64,000 nt of DNA from positions 806,001 through 870,000 of the forward strand of contig OX597817.1 in assembly GCA_951406725.2 (NCBI GenBank), read 5' to 3'. Both the position numbers and the translations under genes were made by a program. Shown in pieces: positions 3,050-64,000 of the stretch. The stretch is from Octopus vulgaris (Eukaryota). The notes beneath the pieces are model-generated. The model was given only the letters and a program-made list of their open reading frames with translations, was not told the DNA's origin and did no database searches. Positions within the stretch are counted from its first letter, which is position 1; every line of letters starts with the position of its first letter.

Positions 3050-4711
3050 GAAAAACAAGAGTGAAAATGCTACTTTCTTAAAATTGGATACATTTTAATT
3101 TTCCTTTTACATGTTTCGGTTTTTGAAAAACCTTATCAAAAATATGTACTGAAATGGAATATGCAAAGAGAAAAGAACTATTAAAAAAATTGAATTAAAA
3201 TTAAGATTAACATTCATAGTTTACTTTCCATTTTCTTGCAAGAACACTGGATAATATCCTTTGGTTCTGGTAGCATGACAAGTTCAACTGACTGTGACCT
3301 CAAATTACTACTATCTGTCTTTGTAATTTGAAATGTGTGGTCAAGACTTGTTTTCTTAGGAGTGGCTACAGCCATGGAATATCTAGCAGGTGGTGAAGTT
3401 GTTCCCCCTGTGGTTTTAATAGAAATTGGGTTCTTCAACCCCTTGTCTTTATTTCTTAAACACACATACATGCACTCACCCGTATACACATATACATATA
3501 TATACAGATACATACATACTCATATATATACACATACACACATACCCATGCATATATATATATACATACATAAATACACACACATTCATATACTCAAATA
3601 CACATGTATTCACATATATGCATATGAAAAAATTCTCATTGTTGCTAGTTTAGAGAATTTAGACTTGGTTGATATTTTCTTATGAAATGCATTTCCTTGT
3701 TGATGCATTCATTTTGGCTAGCATTGTCTTTGAATTTGTATAGTGGAAACGTGATTTTTGGAAATTTGTTGGAAGCACATTCTTCGATGTGCTGGCTGAG
3801 AGGTATTTTCCTGTATTCTGGAATCCTAATTTGAGTTTTGTGCACTGCCATCCTTTGACGTAGGCTGTTTTGTGTGTCCAATATATTGCTGTTTACATCC
3901 TGAGCATGTAATTAATTAAGTAAGTCAAGTTCTCTGATGCACTTGTAAAATTAGTTTTTATAATGAAATTGTGGCCTTGTTCTAATCGGTGTTCAGATCC
4001 TTCTATTATGTTGATACAAATCCCACAGTTGGGTCTCCTGCATTTTTTTTACTGACGGCTTAGTGGCTATTGTTGAGTGTAATTTGGTCTGGCTTAAAAT
4101 CTTTTCCATTGACATTGCTTGTCTTTTACTTTTGATGATTGTGTGTGTTTTGGGGATTTGATTCATCTTTGGGTCTGTCTTATAGAGCTGTGCTGTGGAA
4201 TATGGTGTTGAAGGCCTCATTTTTATGTGGGTTGTGTGTGGAAATGTAAGGCAGGGTTTTCAATTTTTCTTCTTTCTTTGGTCTTGGTTGTCTAAGTTCT
4301 TGTGTGTTTAAGTACTCTTTGGATTGCATTGTTGATTAAGGGTTGTGGGTAATTCCTGTTGATGAGTGTGGTTTTCGATTCCTGGATTCGTGTGTAACGG
4401 ATGTTTGCATTTGATACTGTTGTGCATATTCTTTTGGCTAAACAAAATGGAATATTCATTCTGGTGTGTCTCCTAAGAAAACAAGTCTTGACCACACATT
4501 TCAAATTACAAAGACAGACAGATAGTAGTAATTTGAGGTCACAGTCAGTTGAACTTGTCATGCTACCAGAACCAAAAGATATCATCACGTGTTCTTGCAG
4601 GAAAAAAGAAAAGAAAACTGAATTTTAATCTCAATTTTAATTCAATTTTTTTAATAGTTGGTTTCTCTTCGCATATTTTTGATAAGGTTTTTTCAAAACC
4701 GAAATGTGTTC
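3050..4711 (-). mobile_element. Penelope-like element, 5'-truncated, with GIY-YIG endonuclease remnant and inverted pseudo-LTR
   Basis: Minus-strand pieces NIPFCLAKRICT, CSGCKQQYIG and LRQRMAVHKTQIRIPEYRKIPLSQHIEEC; 3110-3362 is repeated inverted at 4470-4705. Confidence 0.88.
3104..3142 (-). ncRNA. Minimal hammerhead ribozyme-like motif, U3-A8 core variant
   Basis: Minus strand ttt TTGATAA ggttttt c aaaaacc GAAA catg TA aaa; palindromic stem III ACATGT; inverted copy at 4676-4711 has a damaged stem III. Confidence 0.6.
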
Positions 4712-40914: not shown

Positions 40915-41800
40915 ATGGAAGTGTTTTTGACGTTTGGAGCTGAAATCCCTCTTCTGAAAGTAGGACTTTAGTAATCTTCAGAAAAGAAGTCAATGAGAGA
41001 ACATCTGTTAGAACTAAAAATATTCTTCTAGAGACAAACATATCCGAAAATCTTAGTAAATAATACCACAATCAAAGAAAAACGAATCCTAATCCCAAAC
41101 TTTAGGGAAAACTCTTACAACGATGAGGAAGATGCAGACAGAAATATTCTATTTGAAATCCCTCCAAATCCCAGAAACCAGATCTAATATTCGACCGAAC
41201 AATATATTCCAGTTCTATATCAGCCATTAAATCTTAGAAAAATGATTTAAGTCACAAATGTCCAACAGCTGAAGACAACTGCCACAACTTATAAAACTCT
41301 TAACAAAGACAGAATTCACTTCGGTGGTGGTGGGGGATATTAGTGACAAAATGTTGCGGGACGTGTAGGTTGACTGAACAGGGTAAACCCCAACCCCCCA
41401 AAAAATTCAAGAATGGAAGGAAATTCGAGCAAATATGAATTGCAAAAGAAAAAAATCTCTTTTACGGCATCACATGTACACAATGCAATAAGAACTATAT
41501 CAGCCAAACAGGAAACCAATTAATGGACTGTGTCAGGGTACATAAACAACAAAACAACGCTTCATCTATTAGGAGTGTTCCATGTGGTGAACAACTTAAT
41601 ATTTGTGCAAAACTAAAATTAAAAATATACCCATTTTTCAAAGTAAAGGAAAAATCGATCAATTACGAAAGCTCTCCCCCAAAAAGATGCACTCAAAAAA
41701 AGAAAAGTTTTATAAAGCACTAAAAAAAAAAAGAAGTTTTATAAAGATTCTAAAACCGAAACTAAATTGCAATTGAAAACAATTACTACTATACGGATTA
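40915..41800 (+). mobile_element. Decayed Penelope-like element (GIY-YIG) with an eroded antisense hammerhead at its 5' side
   Basis: ITCTQCNKNYISQTG..MDCVRVHKQQ...PCGEQLNICAKLKLKIYPFFK; minus strand 40925-40959 ttt cagaaga gggatttcagctc caaa cg tc aaaa. Confidence 0.7.
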
Positions 41801-53494: not shown

Positions 53495-55251
53495 TGAGTG
53501 TGAATATATTTGTGCGCGCGCGTGTTAGCGAAGGAAATAGCAGTCCAATTTGAAATCCTTAAGACATCCCAATTCTTCTTTGAAAAGATCTGAGAATTCG
53601 TCACAGAGATTGTGGCAATGTCGTTGCAGGAAAGCATAAGGCTTGTTCGAGATATTAAGGCGCGACGTTCTTACATCCTCACTCTTGTCTTGACTCTCTA
53701 CGCATCTCAGTCCAAGAGCATTATCCACAGAGATTCCCAGTGTTTGGATAGCGTTTCGTCCCACCAATTTCAGGTCAGGGATCTTAGTGACTATGTAAAG
53801 AATTGGGCTTTATTTGCCAGTCATTGGATACTTGCTTTGGCCCATAAAAGTTCCCAGCACGGGCAGGTCGTGCTTGCTAGCAGACTCATTGCGAAGTCTG
53901 ACATTATCCAGCTTCGGTTTTTCCAGTTGTTTCCAGACCAGAAATGAAACGAAATTCCCCGTAGTTGCAGTATCCAGTTACATCGTGAACTGTCGGTCTT
54001 GGATTGTGATTGGCACAACTAACCTGGAAGTATTGTCGGGAACTTCTCCGACGATTGTTTTGACAAGCTCTGCTTCCGTGATTCTCTTCACGGAAGGTTG
54101 GGAACGATGTTCCCGTTGCTGCCATTGTTTCTTCTTACAAACAGCTTCCAAATGTCCTTTCTTTTCACGAAAGTGGCATTTGACTTCTTTGTAGGGGCAG
54201 TCTGTCACAGTATGGGCCTTTCCGCATCTGTAACACTTCAACTCGGGGGTCTGTGGACTTAGACTGCTGGTGGGGTTTTTCGTTGGCCCTTGTTCTGTCT
54301 TTGCTTGATCTTATTGACAGGCCTGATCTTGGAACCGTAAACAGTTTCCTTGGCAACCTTCACCGCGTCTTCAGTCTCAATCACAACTTGGAAAGCACAG
54401 GATAAATCCAGCTCTGTGTCCTTGATCTTGCAAAGAGCTTTCAATAAAGCTTCATTGTTGACAGAACATACGAATCTCTATCCAAGAACTTACTTTTGAG
54501 GATCTATGATCGAAGGAAAGCCACAGGTAGCAGCATCTTGACGTATACGCGCTGCCAGTTCGAGGAGAGTTTCGCCTGGCTTCTGTTGCATGTCACTTCA
54601 GAATTTGAAACATTTTCGCTCAATGAAATGTCTTGGGTCGAATTGTTCTTTCATAAAGTTGACAATTTCCCGAATCGTCCGCTTGTTAATATCCCTGGAC
54701 GGACTCTGTTGAGTAGCCAGATTCGCCAGTTGTTTATAGATGGTAGCGGTTTGATTCGTCAAGAGTACTTGAGCCTTGCGCTGGTCAGGCACGGCGTTAG
54801 CCACAAACAAAAGTGCAAAATCTTAGCCAGTAATTAGGCCACAGTTCTGATGTTGAATCAATAGCAGCAAATAGTGGGATAGAGGTTGAAGGAGTTGGAA
54901 GACGGAACTTGGACTGGAATCCTTTCTAGAAACTTGAACTTGAATCAGCCTTCTCAAAGCTTCCAAGTCTTCTCTGTGCTGCCGCACTTGTACCTCCATT
55001 TGTTCTCCCTGAAGTTGAAGTTGTTGCGTGAGCAACTTTATCAGCTTTCCGCTTTGTTCCGCCATTGTTGTCAAGGTAAAAATAACTTACAGTAAAACTC
55101 CAACTATATTAGATAAAATAAAGTAAAACTCTTGACAAAATAATTTAACTGATAACAGAAGCTTATGTGCAAAACTGGTTGTTTACCTTTCAGATTATTG
55201 TATTATCAACGTCAAGGTAAAAGAAAACACTCGGCAAGGATAGTCTTTCTT

Positions 55252-55269
55252 ATCCTATCAGCGAAGCCA
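55252..55269 (-). promoter_or_regulatory. Primer-binding site, tRNA-Ser-like
   Basis: Minus strand TGGCTTCGCTGATAGGAT, 3 nt after the LTR; complement ATCCTATCAGCGAAGCCA resembles a tRNA-Ser 3' end. Confidence 0.6.
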
Positions 55270-55272
55270 ATT

Positions 55273-55531
55273 TGTTGTGCTTCTCTCGTTCACTTGCGAA
55301 AAAGAACACAGTGATACTCCAGATGGGTTTATTACCCCTCTCTCAAGCAGTGTATAACAAGAAAAGACAAAAGCAAAAGGAGAAACGCCCCTCTACCAGC
55401 TCTGCTTATATAGCGGTAAGCCATTAGAACATTCTAGAGGGTTCTACAACTTTCCATTCGATTCTATTGGACAGATTCGAATACCACCACTTTTTATTGG
55501 ACAAATTTAGATGCTAGCGATCTCCACAACA
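55273..55531 (-). repeat. 5' LTR (259 bp) of the Gypsy element
   Basis: Termini TGTTGTG...CACAACA (7-bp inverted repeat); minus-strand TATA-like tatataag and AATAAA. Confidence 0.8.
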
Positions 55532-55539
55532 GTGTAAAA

Positions 55540-56450
55540 ATATGATCAAAAGAGGAATATTCCAAGGAGTTACATTTTGCCCATTTCTATTTGTAATTAT
55601 CTCTCGTCTTTATTTTTAATAATGAAACAAATCGAATCATTTAGTCAAAAGTAACAAAGGAATCATTTATTCATGAATAAACTCAAACTTTACTCCCATG
55701 GTAAGAACTAGTTAGTTTCTTTAAAAGAATTTTCGATAGAGATACTCGTATGAATTATGGTAGTGAAAACAACAGTTGTTTTTACTACCATATTCATATG
55801 CTAATGATAAAGGGAAGGAAATGATAGTTTAAAGTAGTAATTCTTAACCGGGGTCCACATGGCCCCTGGAGGGCCACGTAAGATTTTACTGTTAGAATTG
55901 ATGTGCAATAAATTGGCTATACTTCTACAAGTCATGAATATTTCAGCCATTTTTTAAATACCATTCCAAATAAAATTTAATTATAAAAACATAATGGGAC
56001 TTTTAAAAACATCGAATGTCTATAAGAATCCAGTAGAGTAAAATATGAATGAAAGGGGTCTTTAGGCAAAAAATGGTTGAGAACCACTGATGTAGAAAAC
56101 CCATTCCCTTATGACAATAAAATAGCTGAAGGAAGGTTCTATATAATAATGATGAAGTATGGAAGAAGAATGGAAGAATGGAAGAAAAAGACTAGGAATA
56201 TCATGGAAACAAAATTATATGTGAGGAGCAGCATTAAAGGAATCAATACCCAGAGAAGAACAATACTAAGGTATTTGAGTCTAATGGATAGGTGCACTAG
56301 AAATTTGTTAAAAGCACACAACGTAATACACCTTTGGAGTAATGCTAGCACAATGTCTACATTAAAGAGGGAGAGAGAGGGAGAGAGGGGGAGAGAAAGA
56401 CTTAGCAGTCATCGTGCATGCACCACAGTGCACTTTGTACACTAATGACG
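55540..56450 (+). mobile_element. Very old Dong/R4-like RT remnant, interrupted by a hAT MITE
   Basis: IKRGIFQGVTFCPFLFVI and NHLFMNKLKLY correspond to KRGIFQGDSLSPLLF and NHLFYMDDLKL. Confidence 0.55.
55834..56089. mobile_element. hAT/Charlie-type MITE
   Basis: Left tagtaattcttaaccggggtcc, right aaaaatggttgagaaccactg (CAGTGGTTCTCAACC-type TIR). Confidence 0.7.
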
Positions 56451-56711
56451 TAATCGGGAAGATAAATGGTTATTAGAATAAAAACAGACTAATTAGAATA
56501 TTAAGTAAAGTGAAGATATCGAAAAGATGAGGCTAATGTTGCTGATTTTTGGATCATTTCTGTAATAATTAACCAAAAACTTTTTTTGGCATAAAATTAA
56601 TTAATTCATTCATTATAAAAATTTTCACTTTTTTCAGATACAGCTACAGTTAAATATAGACTTCTCAACCAATTCCATTAAATGTTCTGAAAAATATCAA
56701 ATATCGCAACA

Positions 56712-56800
56712 ATGGGCTGTTCTGCAAGTACAATTATGAAAAAAACGCCTCCTCTGGCAGCGCAAGACCAAACTCTAAAACATGGAGAACGTAGGAAAAG
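56712..56800 (+). CDS. NWD1/NWD2-like NACHT-WD40 protein, first coding exon (MGCSAS lipidation motif)
   Basis: ATG in acaATGG context; MGCSASTIMKKTPPLAAQDQTLKHGERRK; AG|gtaatt phase 2 joins in frame to acceptor aag|t at 57904. Confidence 0.7.
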
Positions 56801-57062
56801 GTAATTCGATTTTTTACTTTGGCACTACCAAGTTAATATTTTTTATGTGTTTTATTCTTTTCCTGGTTTTGGTCATTCGACTACTGCGATGCTGGGAGTT
56901 TTTAGTCTCCATTTTGGGAGACTGTCCAGGTCTCACTACTTTGTTTGGTAGTCATTTTGATCTTTATTTACCGGATGACTAAATTAACTTTGAGTTATGT
57001 CCCTTATACGAATATACGTTCGTATAATGAGTAAATACCACAAAGAATTATGACTAATTCAA

Positions 57063-57160
57063 AGTGGCTGCGTGGTAAGGAGTTTGCTTCCCAACCACAT
57101 AGTTCAGTCCCACTATCTCGTACCTTGAACAAGTGTCTTCTACTATAGCCCCGGATCAAC
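57063..57160 (+). mobile_element. SINE family A, 5' fragment
   Basis: gtggctgcgtggtaaggagtttgcttcccaaccacatagttcagtcccac...aagtgtcttctactatagcc. Confidence 0.7.
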
Positions 57161-57262
57161 TTTAGAAAAGTGTGAATGAAGTACAAAAAGCAAATAAGGA
57201 AGATGATAAAGATGATCAGATTATGTAACTTGTAGGTTAGCACTCTAAATAAGCTAGAAAAT

Positions 57263-57323
<61 letters not shown>

Positions 57324-57903
57324 GCCTGTGTTGGTACACTTTGTGATAAAGTAGATATCAACGTGGTGCTGTGGTGTGCGGCTCATGAAAAGAAGATGGA
57401 CTGGTATAAGAAGAATTGTAAAAAGGAGAGAATTATTTTATATGTGAGGGATGAACAGATGTGTAATGTATATCTTAGTGTCGTTAAGTTCTCAAAAGTT
57501 GATAGACATCTGTGAATATTGAGAAAAATATGGATGTATCCAAGAATACCCAAGTTAGTTCCACCAAATTTATAATGCAGGCAAAAGGGTTGTTGACAAA
57601 AGAAATCAAAGAAGTTTGTTTCTGAGAAGGTTAGTGATGTCGGCAGTGTAGTGGTCATCGAGTTTATGAGTGGATTATTAATTCGATGGAAATTTGCCTT
57701 CTAACATAATCTATGAATAAGCTGGCATAATTAGAGTAATTTTAGAACCTATAGACAAACTTCTAATTAGTGAGCGGAGTTGAAGAGTAAGTGGAGAGAT
57801 TCAGTGACTACCATTTCAACTAGTTTGCGTAATATAATATTGCTACTAATGAAACCAACGATATTGATTGCATTTTTTTCTTTTGAATTCTTCTTCAAAC
57901 AAG

Positions 57904-58481
57904 TGACAACTCAATGGCATCGAAATCAATCGTTCATTCTGAAGAAACTATTCAAGGAAGACCTCCACAGGAACATACTGAAAACCACATTGATGCAGTT
58001 GTAACTTTTGTAACAGATCAAAATATACAAAACGATAACAATGAAAACATCCAGAAAGACAACACTGATTCGAAAAATTCTTGCAATGACAGAAAAGAAC
58101 AGGATATTAAAAGTCCGGAAAATAGTTACAAAAACAATAAATCGGAAGTTCAATCAGAGTCAGTTGACATGACAAATGAAATAACATTTGCCGAAATAGA
58201 CCAAGCAAATTCATCGTTTGAATCTAATTCTGGTGTAAATCTAAAAGAGAATGGAAACCTGCAATCTGGTGAGAGAAATATCGGCGCTAAAATACATTTC
58301 TACAAGAAAATTCAACAGCTCAAAGGTTCAAATAATGCAATGCATGTGAGTAATACTTCTCTAAAGACGGAGATTAGTAGAGAGGAGAAAGCAATCCATG
58401 ATTTACTAATGGGCAATATGCAAGTTGAATGTCTAAGTGAAGCTAAAATCGTACGAATATTTACCAGTAGTACATTCACAG
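57904..58481 (+). CDS. NWD1/NWD2-like protein, exon 2 (low-complexity linker and start of DUF4062)
   Basis: Open frame ...IHDLLMGNMQVECLSEAKIVRIFTSSTFT G|gtaaat, phase 1; VRIFxSSTFxD is the NWD/DUF4062 signature. Confidence 0.88.
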
Positions 58482-58573
58482 GTAAATGATAACATTTTTG
58501 ATTGGTAAAATAATAATTTTAGTATTTTAAATGATTGAGTTGTTGTTTTTCCTTAGTTATTGATGGTGTTGAG

Positions 58574-59259
58574 CAGTGGCGACATCTGTATAGGAACCGT
58601 GGAACTGCAGCACCCTCCTCTATTTCCACTCGATATTATCGATAACATTCAATATAATGAGTCCTTTTTTCTTTAATTCCTTCTTTATGCTTGTACATTA
58701 TGTAATCCTTAAGTTTAATGTCAGTAGCCATCCCCTAGTTTATGGAAAAATACAAAAATCCTTGTATAGAGCTGTGCGCTTCACAGCTCCAGTGACGCGG
58801 TGTTTGGCTGTTGTGCGCATGCTCACTTGTCCGAGATTGGAAGCTTCGCAGTAGGAAGAGAGAGCACTGCGTGAATGACAGTTCTGGGTGAAAGGTAGTG
58901 TTTCTTTTTGACTTCGCGTGTGTTGTGCTTAAAGCGTGTTTATATTCTTGAATGTGATAAATTAGATTATTATCCTTCTTCCAACTTCAATGTTGTTGTT
59001 AGGATTTGAAAAATAGGGCACATTTTTACCCCCTTATTTTGTCATTTGAGGGGATATTTGAAAAACAGGGAGGAATTCTCAGCGGTGTTCAGTGAACAAA
59101 TTAAACATACAACCCGGCGGTAGATAAAACGCGAACCGATCAAGTTTATGTATAAATCTTCTTTTTTATATGTTTGTTTCCTTTTACACAATATTAAAAC
59201 AACGGCTAAAATATTTCTGAAGCAGCACCTCCACTAATTTTATCTACGAGCTGCCACTG
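58574..59259. mobile_element. hAT-family non-autonomous element with perfect 8-bp TSD
   Basis: TSD gtgttgag at 58566-58573 and 59260-59267; TIR CAGTGGC...GCCACTG. Confidence 0.9.
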
Positions 59260-59512
59260 GTGTTGAGTAACCATAACTAAATACATCTGAGAACTCATTG
59301 CTGTTATGAGTAATGCCGAATGAATTCTTGGGAATGATCTCTACGCCCATAGTGGACCCTAACATGAGCAGCACCTCCACCAATTTTATCTACGAGCTGC
59401 CACTGGTGTTGAGTAACCATAAATAAATACATCTGAGAACTCATTGCTGTTATGAGTAATGCCGAATGAATTCTTGGGAATGATCTCTACGCCCATAGTG
59501 GACCCTAACATG
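59221..59512 (+). repeat. 146-bp tandem duplication spanning the right end of the hAT element and its flank
   Basis: Units 59221-59366 and 59367-59512 are nearly identical. Confidence 0.92.
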
Positions 59513-59937
59513 CACAGCACATCATAAAGTTGTGTGCGTGTGTGTGATATAAATACATAAACACACCCGTATACATAATATAGATATATAATACATATAA
59601 ATGTAAATATATATGTGCGCACGCACATCCACACACATATAGACATACACACATACATGTATACACACGCTGATATCCGCTCTTACAGTACACACTAATG
59701 ACACCCAACTTGCACACGCACACACATCCATATATACACGGAACGAAAAACACCGACACACACGTGCACACACACAGACTCCCTCTCTCTACCCCCTCTT
59801 TCTCTCTACCCCTTCTTTCTCCCTCCCTCTCTCTCTCTCTCGCATGCATGTGCACCATTTCTTCATCTGTTCTTTTAGAAAAAGAACAAACGCCCAAAAC
59901 ATCCCAGATAATCTTTTTTCTTGCCAGCGTTATACTA

Positions 59938-59975
<38 letters not shown>

Positions 59976-60136
59976 AAGCGTATGTGTGTATGTATGTGCG
60001 TGTGTGTATATATGTGCGTGTGTGTATTTGTGTGTGAGAGAGAGAAAGAAAGAGAGAGCCTGTGTGAGAGGGTTTAACTAAAACAATCAATTTTCCTTTA
60101 CAAACACGGTCTGAGTTTTCAATCTATATTCTATAG

Positions 60137-60339
60137 ATACCCAACACGAACGAAATTATTTAATGGAGAACGCTTACTGTAAACTGAAGACTTTCTGTCA
60201 GCAAAATGGCTACCAGTTTCAAGTTGTGGACATGCGTTGGGGTATTGGACAAGATGCTACCAATGACCACCTAACAACCGAGTTGTGTATGAAAGAGTTG
60301 AAACTATGTCAGAAACTTTCGACGGGACCAAATTTTGTG
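60137..60339 (+). CDS. NWD1/NWD2-like protein, exon 3 (DUF4062 core); gene continues downstream
   Basis: ctatag| acceptor completes the Asp codon; DTQHERNYLMENAYCKLKTFCQQNGYQFQVVDMRWGI..ATNDHLTTELCMKELKLCQKLSTGPNFV|gtgaat. Confidence 0.92.
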
Positions 60340-60697
60340 GTGAATATTTATTTCATAAAATCTTTTGTTTTGCTTTTCGTAATGTATCTGAGTGGAAGGG
60401 AAGTCACCGAAAGAATAAAGCATTGAATCACATTATCAAGGATGCTGAGTTCAAATCCACAGCAGGCGCCTCGTTTGTTTTCGAGATACAGTATATTATT
60501 ATACATTCCCGCATTTCAGCACTTTTGGAGAAAGTGTCTGCAGACGCGGTTGTGTAGTAAGAAACTTATTTCCCGACCTCATGGTTCCTGGTTCAGTCCC
60601 ACAGCGTGGTACCTTGGGCAAGCACTTTCTACTATAGCCTTAGACCGACTAAAGCCTTTTGAGTGGATTTATTAGACGGAAACTGAAAGAAACGCGT

Positions 60698-60734
<37 letters not shown>

Positions 60735-60738
<4 letters not shown>

Positions 60739-62704
60739 GTAGTAGTAACAGAAAAGAGGAATTTCGGTTGTCCCCACGTGGTGGATTGTAATGTATATAA
60801 GAAAATAAAAAAAGGAAAATACGCACACTTACATGGTTATAATATAATTTTTAATGTATCGACCGGTTTCGCAATCGCTATTCATGATATAATGTTTAAT
60901 TTATATGAATATATATTTTTTCTTAAGAAGAAATTTGTAATGAAGTTCACGAGTGAATGATTTTACAAGTTGACAAGGAAAGGGAGGTAATTAGTTGTTA
61001 TTATTGTTATTGTTGTGTGTAAGGGAGAGAACTGTTTAGGTTTTGGGTGGGGAATAAATACGTGTACAGACAATTATTTCCTATTTGATGACACATACTA
61101 TCGTCAGAAATGCGGAATTGCGATGGGGACGAAAGCAGCTCCTGTTCTTGCGAACCTAATAATGGGTTATTTTGAATTCACCTTATATGAAGTATCACTT
61201 CAGAAATATGGTTGCCCATTTTACATCTACATAAGAGAAAATTCGAAGCGATACCTGGATGACTGTTTTATCATTTGGAAGGAGAACATCGACAAACTTT
61301 TGGATTTCAAAACAACATTAAATGACATAAATAGTAACATTCAATTCACAATGGAATATAAAGAACAACTTTCATTTTTAGACATCATGATAAAAAAAGT
61401 CAACTGACATTTATTATAAACCAACTGACTCAAAACAATATCTTCTTTTCAACTCATGCCACCCGAAACACATAAAAATAAACATCCCTTTTAAACTTAG
61501 CAAAAAGGATCTGCACAATAGTGTCTGATAGAACAACTCGGGACCTTCGTCTTCAAGACCTCAAGACAACACTTATTGAAAGACAATATCCACCCTCTCT
61601 TATCGACGAGGGAATTAAACGTGCCAAACAATTAGACACAAAACACTAAGAACAACAAAACAGAGTACCACACCTCAAACCAAAACATTACTTTTTATAT
61701 CAACACACAACCCCAGAAACAGTGAGGCATTCAACACTATTGTGCAAACTCTCCCTTTACTAACTAGAGATCCAAAAATGAACGACATCCTGAAAACACA
61801 CAAACTCATCAAATGCAAGAAACAAGACAAATCGTTAAAGAGACTACTAACAAATGCGAAGCTTTACAAAACAACCACGAAACCAACGGTTGAAAAATAT
61901 GGACGCCCGAACTGTGTCACCTGCGCCAACCTGCTTGAAGGCTCGGATTTCCTTTTCAAACGAGGACAGAGGTTCAAAATTAAAACTAGTTTCACCTGTG
62001 CCTCTGAGAACCTAATTTATGTAATAACCTGCTCGGGTTGCAGTCATCAGTACATTGGACAAACGAGTTTAACTTTGAGGAAGAGAATCACTCTGCATAA
62101 GGAGCAAATCCGTTTCCCGCAATACAGACAAATTCCTCTTAGTGAACACATAGAAAAATGTGCAGGTAACAGCAAACCAAATTTTACAGTCTTCCCTTTC
62201 TACCAGTGCAAAGACACAATCTCTCAACTAGAACGCTTAAATAAAGAAACTTTTTTCATTGAAAAATACAAAACGCGTCTTAATATGCACGCATAGCTAA
62301 CTTTTATATTTTTACATATTACATCACTACTAAACAAGGTCCCTTTTTGTAAACCTGTCTCCTTTCTGTACACATATTTATTCCCCACCCAAAACCTAAA
62401 CAGTTATCTCCCTTACACACAACAATAACAATAATAACAACCAATTATCTCCCTTTACTTGTCAACTTGTAAAATCATTCACTCATGAATTTCATTACAA
62501 ACATGGACCAAATTTCTTCTTAAGAAAAAATATATATTCATATAAATTAAACATTATATCATGAATAGCGATTGCGAAACCGGTCGATACATTAAAAATT
62601 ATATTATAACCATGTAAGTGTGCGTACTTTCCTTTTTTTACTTTCTTATATACATTACAATTCACCATGTGGGGACAACCGAAATTCCCCTTTTCTTTTA
62701 CTAC

Positions 62705-62710
<6 letters not shown>
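60735..62710 (+). mobile_element. Penelope-like element, 5'-truncated: RT C-half, GIY-YIG and inverted pseudo-LTR
   Basis: NYFLFDDTYYRQKCGIAMGTKAAPVLANL, RYLDDCF, LSFLDIMI; LIYVITCSGCSHQYIGQTSLTLRKRITLHKEQI; 60735-61070 is the inverted copy of 62366-62710; (TA)n on both sides. Confidence 0.93.
62557..62589 (+). ncRNA. Minimal hammerhead ribozyme-like motif, A3-U8 core variant (identical inverted copy at 60857-60889, minus strand)
   Basis: TATC ATGAATA gc gatt gc GAAA ccgg TC GATA; stem I TATC/GATA, 2-bp stem II, palindromic ACCGGT stem III, GUC triplet. Confidence 0.7.
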
Positions 62711-62793
<83 letters not shown>

Positions 62794-64000
62794 TATATCT
62801 GTGTGTCTTTGTGCCATAGTTTGTCTCCCCCTCCACTGCTTAACAACTGGTGTTGGTATGTTTAAATTTCTGTAACTTAGCAAAAGAGACTAATAGAATA
62901 AGAATCAGACTCAAAAATAAGTACTGGGGTCGATTCGTTTGACTAAAAGTTCTCCAAAATGGTGCCACAGAATGACCGCAGTCTCATGACTGAAACAAGA
63001 AAAAGGTAATAGATAAAAGAAGGCTGATCATCCAGTGATACTCATACACACACACACGCACATTTATGTTTTGGAACGAAAGAAAATACTACTGAACACT
63101 TGGTATAGAGTTTATATTAATTGTGAAATAATTGGTGATTCACCCCACTGCAACTCAGGGTTTAACGCATGTTAAATACACATGTGATCCAGTCCGGTAA
63201 TATTTTATGGATAATTGAAGCTGCGTCTGTAATACACTAGTTAAGTTGATTCTCATTGGTCAAAGGCAGATCTCGTAGTAGAATATGTGGTAGGTCAGAA
63301 ATGTTGCTTGCTAGACTACTTGATGAAAAAGAAACCATCTGCTCCACACTCGAAGACATCATGAGGCAAATAGGTTCAAATATTAAAACTAGCGATATAA
63401 ATTAACTGGAGAAGAAATATTTTAAATGATGTCATAAACAGCTTCCACAGGTCTGGAAATCCAGAGCGGACCGATTCAAATCTACAGCCAAAGATCAACG
63501 AGCACCGTGAACGATTTGCCTCATGATATCTACGAGTGTGGACGAAATGGTTTCTCTTTCATCAAGCAGTTTAGCGAACATTTCTGACCTACCACATATT
63601 CGACTACGAGATCTGCCTTTGACCAATAAGAATCGACCTAACTAGTGTATTGCTTCAATTATTCATAAAATATGACCAAAGTTATTGATAGATATCAATT
63701 ATTTATAAAATATGACCAGAATTATTGATAGATACTTTCACTCCTGAAATGTCAAGTAGGTGACAGAAAATGTATCGACTTCGAACGGGGGAAAAAACGG
63801 AGGTTGTGCGTCCCTACTTTTCTTCTCGGGCAACAGGAGTGTAATTAAATTGCTACGATCGGGAATCGAGACCTGAGTTGCAAACACATACAAGTTACAT
63901 TATGTCCGTCATTACGTGTGACAAAACCTGGGCATGGCAACTGGATCCACTAGAAGTAGCAATCAACTTTCCCTCAAATTCCATCCAACCGTCTTGGAAA

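What the first reader, a model, noticed from the sequence alone, without database searches (positions are those of the whole stretch)
62557..62589. Penelope hammerhead with an A3-U8 compensatory catalytic core
Seen: the 3' pLTR of the best-preserved Penelope copy folds as a minimal type I hammerhead (stem I TATC/GATA, stem II GC-gatt-GC, GAAA, palindromic ACCGGT, GUC site), but the core is AUGAAUA instead of CUGANGA. The only two changed positions are 3 and 8, both transversions. The inverted copy at 60857-60889 is identical. Established: C3 and G8 form a Watson-Crick tertiary pair in the active hammerhead, and PLE pLTRs carry minimal hammerheads thought to cleave as dimers through the palindromic stem III. 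Inference: this is a natural covariant core that standard CUGANGA searches would miss, rather than decay. Both copies come from one insertion, so they are not independent evidence.
Basis: partly seen in the sequence, partly recalled or inferred. Interest (0 to 1): 0.8.

Follow-up and report, generated by a model that had tools for sequence, protein, structure and literature searches.

The report
Retrotransposon hammerheads with flipped core pair
A family of Penelope-like jumping genes in this animal genome carries a hammerhead RNA motif whose core C-G pair is replaced by A-U, and other such repeats in the same genome use U-A, G-C or C-G, so the pairing rather than the letters is likely what is kept and standard motif searches would miss most of them; whether the A-U form actually cuts itself is untested.

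Summary
Confirmed and larger than reported. The A3-U8 core is the family norm, not decay: 34 of 34 aligned copies have A3 and 33 have U8. Genome-wide, 1,207 of 1,303 A3 motif matches have U8. The same genome holds all four Watson-Crick pairs at positions 3 and 8: U-A (commonest), A-U, G-C and C-G (about 2%). Near-identical sister subfamilies differ by A-U versus G-C. On a protein tree the pair changes 3-4 times and stays paired; one origin for all A3-U8 is rejected (p 0.016). A3-U8 most likely came via the known U3-A8 variant, not directly from C3-G8. The element looks Neptune/Nematis-type. Against: a single copy does not fold as a hammerhead by energy; insertion ends never fall on the predicted cut; a published mutational scan found only the G-C swap active. 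Cleavage is untested. I found no natural A3-U8 or G3-C8 in print (9 searches; two key papers unreadable). This scan noted single A3-U8 and G3-C8 cases earlier on other DNA, mostly phage. New variant of a known kind.

The parts
62557..62589 (+). Type I hammerhead motif with A3-U8 core (A3 62561, U8 62566; predicted cut 62585|62586; stem I can extend to 62555-62591 across an A.C mismatch)
60857..60889 (-). Identical hammerhead motif in the inverted copy of the element's 3' end
62365..62709 (+). 3' pseudo-LTR and tail of the element; ends about 125 nt past the predicted cut, in a (TA)n run
60737..61070 (-). Inverted copy of the 3' pseudo-LTR joined to the 5'-truncated direct copy (arms 95-97% complementary)
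61071..61407 (+). Fragment of the reverse transcriptase frame (5'-truncated, broken downstream)
   Evidence: intact relative L149 hits RVT_1 at E 1e-6, just under Pfam's cut-off
61619..62296 (+). Thumb, Cys linker and GIY-YIG endonuclease frame (225 aa)
   Evidence: PF01541, E 2e-7
62561..62617 (+). 18-codon upstream frame opened by A3-U4-G5 (AUG); not the element's main start
3105..3142 (-). Hammerhead of a second Penelope-like family in the window, with U3-A8 core and palindromic ACAUGU stem III; its endonuclease lies at 3657-4296 (-)

Best explanation
The motif is the standard hammerhead of a Penelope-like retrotransposon family whose core positions 3 and 8 are A and U, while other families in the same genome carry U-A, G-C or C-G there; it likely still forms the 3-8 tertiary pair and is predicted to act as a slow self-cleaving RNA that would need a second copy or the element's protein. 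Shown: consensus status, position in the pseudo-LTR, covariation of 3-8 and of stem I across families, lower divergence of the core than of its flanks. Inferred: two motifs of a tandem transcript pair through the palindromic ACCGGU to build stem III; G12 stays the general base and the 2'-OH of nucleotide 8 the general acid, which is why the base at 8 can change if 3 changes with it; cutting at C17 is inefficient or late, so uncut RNA is what gets inserted. Inferred history: C-G to U-A (known variant), then one or two flips to purine-3/pyrimidine-8, then exchange between G-C and A-U.
For: Consensus: A3 in 34 of 34, U8 in 33 of 34 motifs in 30 loci picked by whole-region BLAST; 1,207 of 1,303 A3 matches have U8 (reversed control 6). 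Other pairs, first 100 listed rows tallied by hand: U3 82 of 87 A8; G3 65 of 100 C8; C3 61 of 100 G8. One near-identical context gives 82 A-U, 13 G-C, 4 A.C, 1 U.C of 100 listed. Stem I was not in the patterns that gave these loci, yet reaches 4 bp or more in 38 of 47 A3-U8 motifs against 2 of 35 chance metagenome matches. In 17 hand-picked representatives all six stem I pairs change on both sides. Core 3 of 319 cells differ versus 187 of 3,665 in flanks (p 0.0002, copies not independent). Tree: 4 changes counted, A3-U8 not one clade (p-AU 0.0155). For the 6-bp stem I subfamily (L018) the double hammerhead equals the lowest-energy dimer (-15.9 kcal/mol). A PLE hammerhead from a lizard cleaves only with its protein, is rescued by C3G/G8C, and is inserted uncut (PMC11167929). 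The 2'-OH of G8 is the proposed general acid (PMC6155905).
Against: No cleavage data. In a pairwise scan of a type III hammerhead only the G-C swap rescued activity and all other double mutants in this region were low (PMC9901934); that would include A-U, but also the natural U-A. None of 30 near-full-length loci (three places held twice or thrice) starts at the predicted cut and about 8 places run across an intact 5' motif or its cut site; none of 34 3' ends stops there (loci chosen by a query that favours long copies). For this window's copy the double hammerhead is 6.5 kcal/mol above the best dimer fold, and for 3 of the other 4 copies tested it is 1.6-4.8 above. Strict pairing is not absolute: a C3.A8 subfamily of a 360-nt tandem repeat has spread, and A3-U8 copies with an A.C mismatch in stem I are common. 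The number of independent 3-8 changes is only 3-4.
Confidence: 0.65

Rival explanations
1. The hammerhead fold is kept as a structure (a handle for the RT-endonuclease protein, or a spacer that sets the reverse-transcription start sites 70-130 nt downstream), and cuts little or not at all; this relaxed demand is what lets the 3-8 pair wander.
For: Insertion ends ignore the cut site and cluster at about +71 and +116 to +133. Hammerhead mutants did not affect insertion in vitro in PMC11167929. A-U was not rescued in PMC9901934. Canonical C3-G8 survives here mainly in a non-coding tandem repeat.
Against: The 3-8 pair belongs to the active conformation (PMC3884650). H17, A15.1-U16.1 and the palindrome are kept across the families aligned, though these letters were part of my search patterns.
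Confidence: 0.25
2. A3 was selected because A3-U4-G5 makes an AUG start codon (upstream frame or spliced first exon), with U8 following to save the pair.
For: An 18-codon frame from this AUG, ending at a GTAAGT donor-like site, is kept in several subfamilies. In the lizard element the ORF starts inside the hammerhead.
Against: The main ORF has its own ATG 172-174 nt downstream and I saw no AG acceptor after the pyrimidine tract in those two copies. In the second A3-U8 lineage stem II length varies by one base and the frame differs between subfamilies.
Confidence: 0.05
3. The motif is a dead relic; A3 and U8 drifted in a few master copies and pair by chance.
For: Only 3-4 independent changes; copy numbers reflect amplification, not independent tests; a mismatched C3.A8 subfamily spread.
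Against: Every protein-coding lineage sampled has a Watson-Crick pair at 3-8 while endonucleases are only about 55-62% identical; the core is about five times less divergent than flanks; stem I covaries.
Confidence: 0.05

Closest known systems
U3-A8 minimal hammerheads of Cercyon Penelope-like elements in Schistosoma mansoni (Cervera and de la Pena 2014, PMC4209133)
   Same: Type I motif in the pseudo-LTR of an endonuclease-bearing PLE, palindromic stem III suited to dimer folding, family-wide covariation at 3-8 missed by the standard descriptor.
   Different: Here the pair is purine-3/pyrimidine-8 (A-U, G-C); stem II is only 1-3 bp and lacks the extra base between 9 and 10.1; all four pairs occur in one genome. 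Their 56-motif alignment shows C3-G8 except two U3-A8 and one U3-G8.
Natural U3-A8 hammerheads (Perreault et al. 2011, PMC3088659)
   Same: Compensatory change of the 3-8 pair in nature; very short stem II is also reported.
   Different: Only U3-A8 is named in the passages I saw; those were rare cases, not high-copy retroelement families.
Protein-assisted hammerhead of the Anolis Poseidon element PAc (Frangieh et al. 2024, PMC11167929)
   Same: Reverse transcription starts at two sites downstream of an uncut hammerhead, giving the tail; the engineered G3-C8 swap partly rescues cleavage.
   Different: PAc has C3-G8 and its ORF starts inside the hammerhead; here the ORF starts about 172 nt downstream, and G3-C8 and A3-U8 are natural.
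Neptune/Nematis clades of EN+ Penelope-like elements (Craig et al. 2021, PMC8557442)
   Same: RT followed by a CX4CXXC linker and C-terminal GIY-YIG, (TA)n targets, inverted 5'-truncated copy, tail.
   Different: Clade not fixed by a tree with named references; the hammerheads listed in their File S2 all have C3 and G8.

Membership tests
Type I hammerhead (PLE form) | U4 G5 A6, A9, G12 A13 A14, A15.1-U16.1, H17 | tested here: met
Type I hammerhead (PLE form) | Literal C3 and G8 (CUGANGA) | tested here: not met
   A3 and U8 in 33 of 34 copies; so filed as a variant, not a canonical member
Type I hammerhead (PLE form) | Watson-Crick complementarity between positions 3 and 8 | tested here: met
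Type I hammerhead (PLE form) | Stems I and II with compensatory changes; G10.1-C11.1 | tested here: met
   (representatives hand-picked; stem II second pair broken in 3 of 17)
Type I hammerhead (PLE form) | Palindromic stem III allowing a double hammerhead | tested here: met
   ACCGGU; dimer equals the lowest-energy fold in 1 of 5 copies tested and is 1.6-6.5 kcal/mol above it in 4
Type I hammerhead (PLE form) | Extra nucleotide between 9 and 10.1 typical of min-HHRs | tested here: not met
   A9 is followed directly by G10.1
Type I hammerhead (PLE form) | Match to Rfam hammerhead models | tested here: not met
   no hammerhead hit at E<=5 in 54000-64000
Type I hammerhead (PLE form) | Site-specific self-cleavage after H17 | not testable with these tools
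   only contigs were available; insertion ends do not mark the site
EN+ Penelope-like element | RT with C-terminal GIY-YIG endonuclease in one frame | tested here: met
   635-aa frame in L149
EN+ Penelope-like element | Pseudo-LTR, inverted 5'-truncated copy, optional tail, tandem units | tested here: met
Neptune/Nematis clade | CX2-5CxxC linker between RT and endonuclease | tested here: met
   CX4CXXC in L149; first Cys lost in the window copy
Neptune/Nematis clade | Phylogenetic placement with named reference elements | not tested
   no named references on hand

The most novel reading that the evidence does not exclude
One animal genome holds a natural saturation experiment on the hammerhead's 3-8 tertiary pair: retrotransposon lineages have fixed all four Watson-Crick pairs, including A3-U8, which looked inactive in a laboratory scan, because dimer folding or the element's own RT-endonuclease protein licenses otherwise dead cores. 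CUGANGA searches would then miss about 98% of this hammerhead class here, and other elements called 'ribozyme-less' may hide such cores.
Probability: 0.4. Interest if true: 0.7.

Novelty: new variant of a known kind. Interest (0 to 1): 0.57.

Why it matters
The C3-G8 pair is a textbook feature of the active hammerhead. Natural covariation was described only as U3-A8 in the papers I could read. A3-U8 and G3-C8 fixed in repeat families of over a thousand and about a hundred matches, with sister subfamilies differing at both ends of the pair, complete the set from evolution alone. They give matched natural constructs to test what the hammerhead does for Penelope-like elements, which is still open, and whether the element's protein rescues weak cores. 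They also show that CUGANGA descriptors undercount these motifs: C3-G8 is roughly 110 of 7,162 matches of this class here (estimate).

Tried and rejected
Decay private to this copy: rejected. Rfam: no hammerhead hit. A3-U8 in metagenomes: 35 matches, none near a PLE gene, 2 of 35 with stem I of 4 bp or more, read as chance. Viral contigs: no relative. Purine-3/pyrimidine-8 cores with other stem III centres: 43 matches versus 58 control, background. A3UG as main ORF start: rejected. Genomic footprint of cutting: none. Expression and RNA ends: no RNA holder listed; four runs laid were contigs only and cannot show ends; the 40 variant rows shown include none at positions 3 or 8, but 19 rows were not shown, so I draw nothing firm on other species. 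One origin for purine-3/pyrimidine-8: neither shown nor rejected (p-AU 0.40). Papers not held: Przybilski and Hammann 2007 and Lunse et al. on PLE hammerhead dimers; either may already report A3-U8, the first (recalled) as an engineered swap. Supplement file 1 of PMC4209133 could not be searched; supplements of PMC9901934 were listed, not read.

Full report
Observation. In hammerhead numbering A3 is 62561, U8 is 62566, C17 is 62585. A descriptor with free positions 3, 7 and 8 finds three hits in the window: these two and one at 3142 (-), which has U3-A8 and follows the endonuclease of a second Penelope-like family. The 33-mer does not fold as a hammerhead by energy: its best fold is another hairpin (z -0.13) and the monomer hammerhead scores +5.4 kcal/mol. 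Rfam gives no hammerhead match at E<=5.

The element. The motif sits in the 3' pseudo-LTR of a 5'-truncated, broken copy (61071-62709) preceded by an inverted copy of its own 3' end (60737-61070) and flanked by (TA)n. A relative, L149, keeps a 635-aa frame with RT (Pfam E 1e-6, just under the cut-off) and GIY-YIG (E 2e-6), joined by a CX4CXXC linker. Passages of PMC8557442 give that linker to Neptune and Nematis elements; I did not place it on a tree with named references. Named protein relatives include oysters. The 2.8-Gb host is probably a cephalopod; that is my guess from recall, not a result.

Is A3-U8 the family norm? Yes. Of 30 loci chosen by BLAST score over 401 bases (40 of 1,463 candidates were scored), all 34 aligned motifs have A3 and 33 have U8. 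With stem II fixed and positions 7-8 free there are 177 genome matches, control 0, and 99 of the 100 listed have U8. With stem II free, A3 gives 1,303 matches (control 6) of which 96 lack U8, leaving 1,207. The 7% of mismatched copies is close to flank divergence among copies (5%), as expected for decay after insertion. These are pattern matches, not insertions; many insertions hold two.

All four pairs in one genome. For motifs with the ACCGGU stem III the totals are U3 5,507 (5,859 minus 169 minus 183), A3 1,303, C3 183, G3 169. Tallied by hand from the first 100 listed rows of each call: U3 82 A8 and 5 G8 of 87; G3 65 C8, 17 A8, 13 U8, 5 G8; C3 61 G8, 29 A8, 9 U8, 1 C8. Many off-pair rows share stem II with the large U-A or A-U families and look like single mutants. 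One exception matters: a C3.A8 subfamily of a 360-nt tandem repeat without a long frame has spread, beside C3-G8 and U3-A8 versions of the same repeat. In one near-identical context (150 matches) the first 100 are 82 A-U, 13 G-C, 4 A.C, 1 U.C and no G.U. A further 1,286 matches have ACAUGU, nearly all with A8 among those listed (control 83). Purine-3/pyrimidine-8 with other stem III centres is at background (43 versus 58).

Independent structure tests. Stem I was not in the patterns that produced loci L031-L133. It reaches 4 bp or more in 38 of 47 A-U, 15 of 32 G-C, 13 of 23 U-A and 10 of 11 C-G motifs, and in at most 5% of arm pairs drawn from different classes; chance metagenome matches give 2 of 35. 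In 17 hand-picked representatives 94% of cells pair, against 24-41% for slid controls, and all six stem I pairs change on both sides (relatedness and my choice inflate this). Among 29 BLAST-chosen copies the 11 core positions differ in 3 of 319 cells, stems in 10 of 464, flanks in 187 of 3,665, gaps counted.

History. Trees of the protein upstream of each motif (40 of 62 rows; 43 of 61; short rows dropped and listed there) give a U-A group, the A-U clade of this finding (99/99), a second U-A clade (100/100) and a G-C clade (100/99) with a second A-U subfamily inside it. On 31 rows (12 gappy or long rows dropped) four changes are counted, three if the two nested A-U rows share an origin; one clade for all A-U is rejected (p-AU 0.0155) and one clade for purine-3/pyrimidine-8 is not (0.40). 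Of 10 outside loci, one at 38% identity has U3-A8 with a palindrome and four at 26-29% (three from one tandem array) have C3-G8; the rest gave no clear motif. I infer C-G, then U-A, then one or two flips, then G-C/A-U exchange. The root is not firmly set.

How it likely works. Tandem copies place the motif 172-174 nt upstream of the next unit's ATG, so a unit transcript can carry two motifs that pair through ACCGGU. For the subfamily with a 6-bp A-U stem I this double hammerhead equals the best dimer fold; for four other copies it is 1.6-6.5 kcal/mol worse, the window copy being worst. The proposed general acid is the 2'-OH of nucleotide 8 (PMC6155905, passages), so a base swap that keeps the pair can keep the chemistry; this step is inference. 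Insertions do not record cutting: 3' ends cluster at about +71 and +116 to +133 past the site, none at it (34 ends, one cut off by the locus edge), and none of 30 near-full-length loci begins at it. This matches the lizard element, where two internal start sites make the tail, uncut RNA is the substrate, cleavage needs the protein, and C3G/G8C partly rescues (PMC11167929, parts 1-2 of 4 read). Against activity, a pairwise scan of a type III hammerhead found only the G-C swap active (PMC9901934, passages). A3-U4-G5 forms an AUG and opens an 18-codon frame, but it is not the ORF start and is not kept in frame in the second A-U lineage.

What is known. U3-A8 is reported in PLEs (PMC4209133, parts 1-2 of 4 and supplement parts 1-2 of 3) and elsewhere (PMC3088659, passages). 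Passages only: PMC3884650, PMC6765202, PMC8495972, PMC10085705, PMC2920678, PMC6962438, PMC11014351, PMC8557442 (supplement search and part 2). Part 1 of 5 of preprint 10.64898/2026.07.22.740005. Nine searches showed no natural A3-U8 or G3-C8. Two papers most likely to bear on this were not held, so novelty is provisional. Earlier notes of this scan mention one A3-U8 and several G3-C8 cases in phages and G3-C8 in protist PLE tails; I did not test them and they are not support.

Verdict. Real, conserved and family-wide; a new variant of a known ribozyme in a known element, with unusually complete natural covariation and no proof of cleavage. Interest 0.57.

Noticed in passing
window 3105-3142 (-) and 3657-4296 (-): A second Penelope-like family with a U3-A8 hammerhead and ACAUGU palindrome; the ACAUGU class has 1,286 genome matches.
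   Followed up: partly
L070-L093, e.g. L073:1-3030: A 360-nt tandem repeat without a long frame, with a hammerhead in every unit (retrozyme-like). It holds most canonical C3-G8 cores, plus U3-A8 and amplified C3.A8 versions.
   Followed up: partly
window 57887-58489 (+) and 60115-60340 (+): Exon-like frames of a host gene (weak NPHP3-domain hit, E 4e-4, below cut-off). The element seems to lie in an intron in the sense direction, where its two 340-nt arms could pair and hide both motifs.
   Followed up: partly
window 62614-62619 (+): A GTAAGT donor-like site 53 nt after A3, kept in several subfamilies, ending an 18-codon upstream frame; no acceptor seen before the ORF start.
   Followed up: partly
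window 62555-62556 with 62590-62591: The fifth pair of stem I is G-C, A-U or A.C in different subfamilies; the window copy has the mismatch.
   Followed up: yes
L232-L241: Penelope-like elements on contigs filed under bacterial MAGs, probably host-animal DNA; L237-L239 is a tandem array with a 3,083-nt unit and C3-G8 hammerheads.
   Followed up: partly
window 41406-41651 (+): A more distant GIY-YIG fragment (32% identity), likely a third Penelope-like family.
   Followed up: no
window 63231-63651 and 59221-59512: A nested inverted repeat (75- and 67-nt arms), MITE-like, and a 146-nt direct duplication.
   Followed up: no
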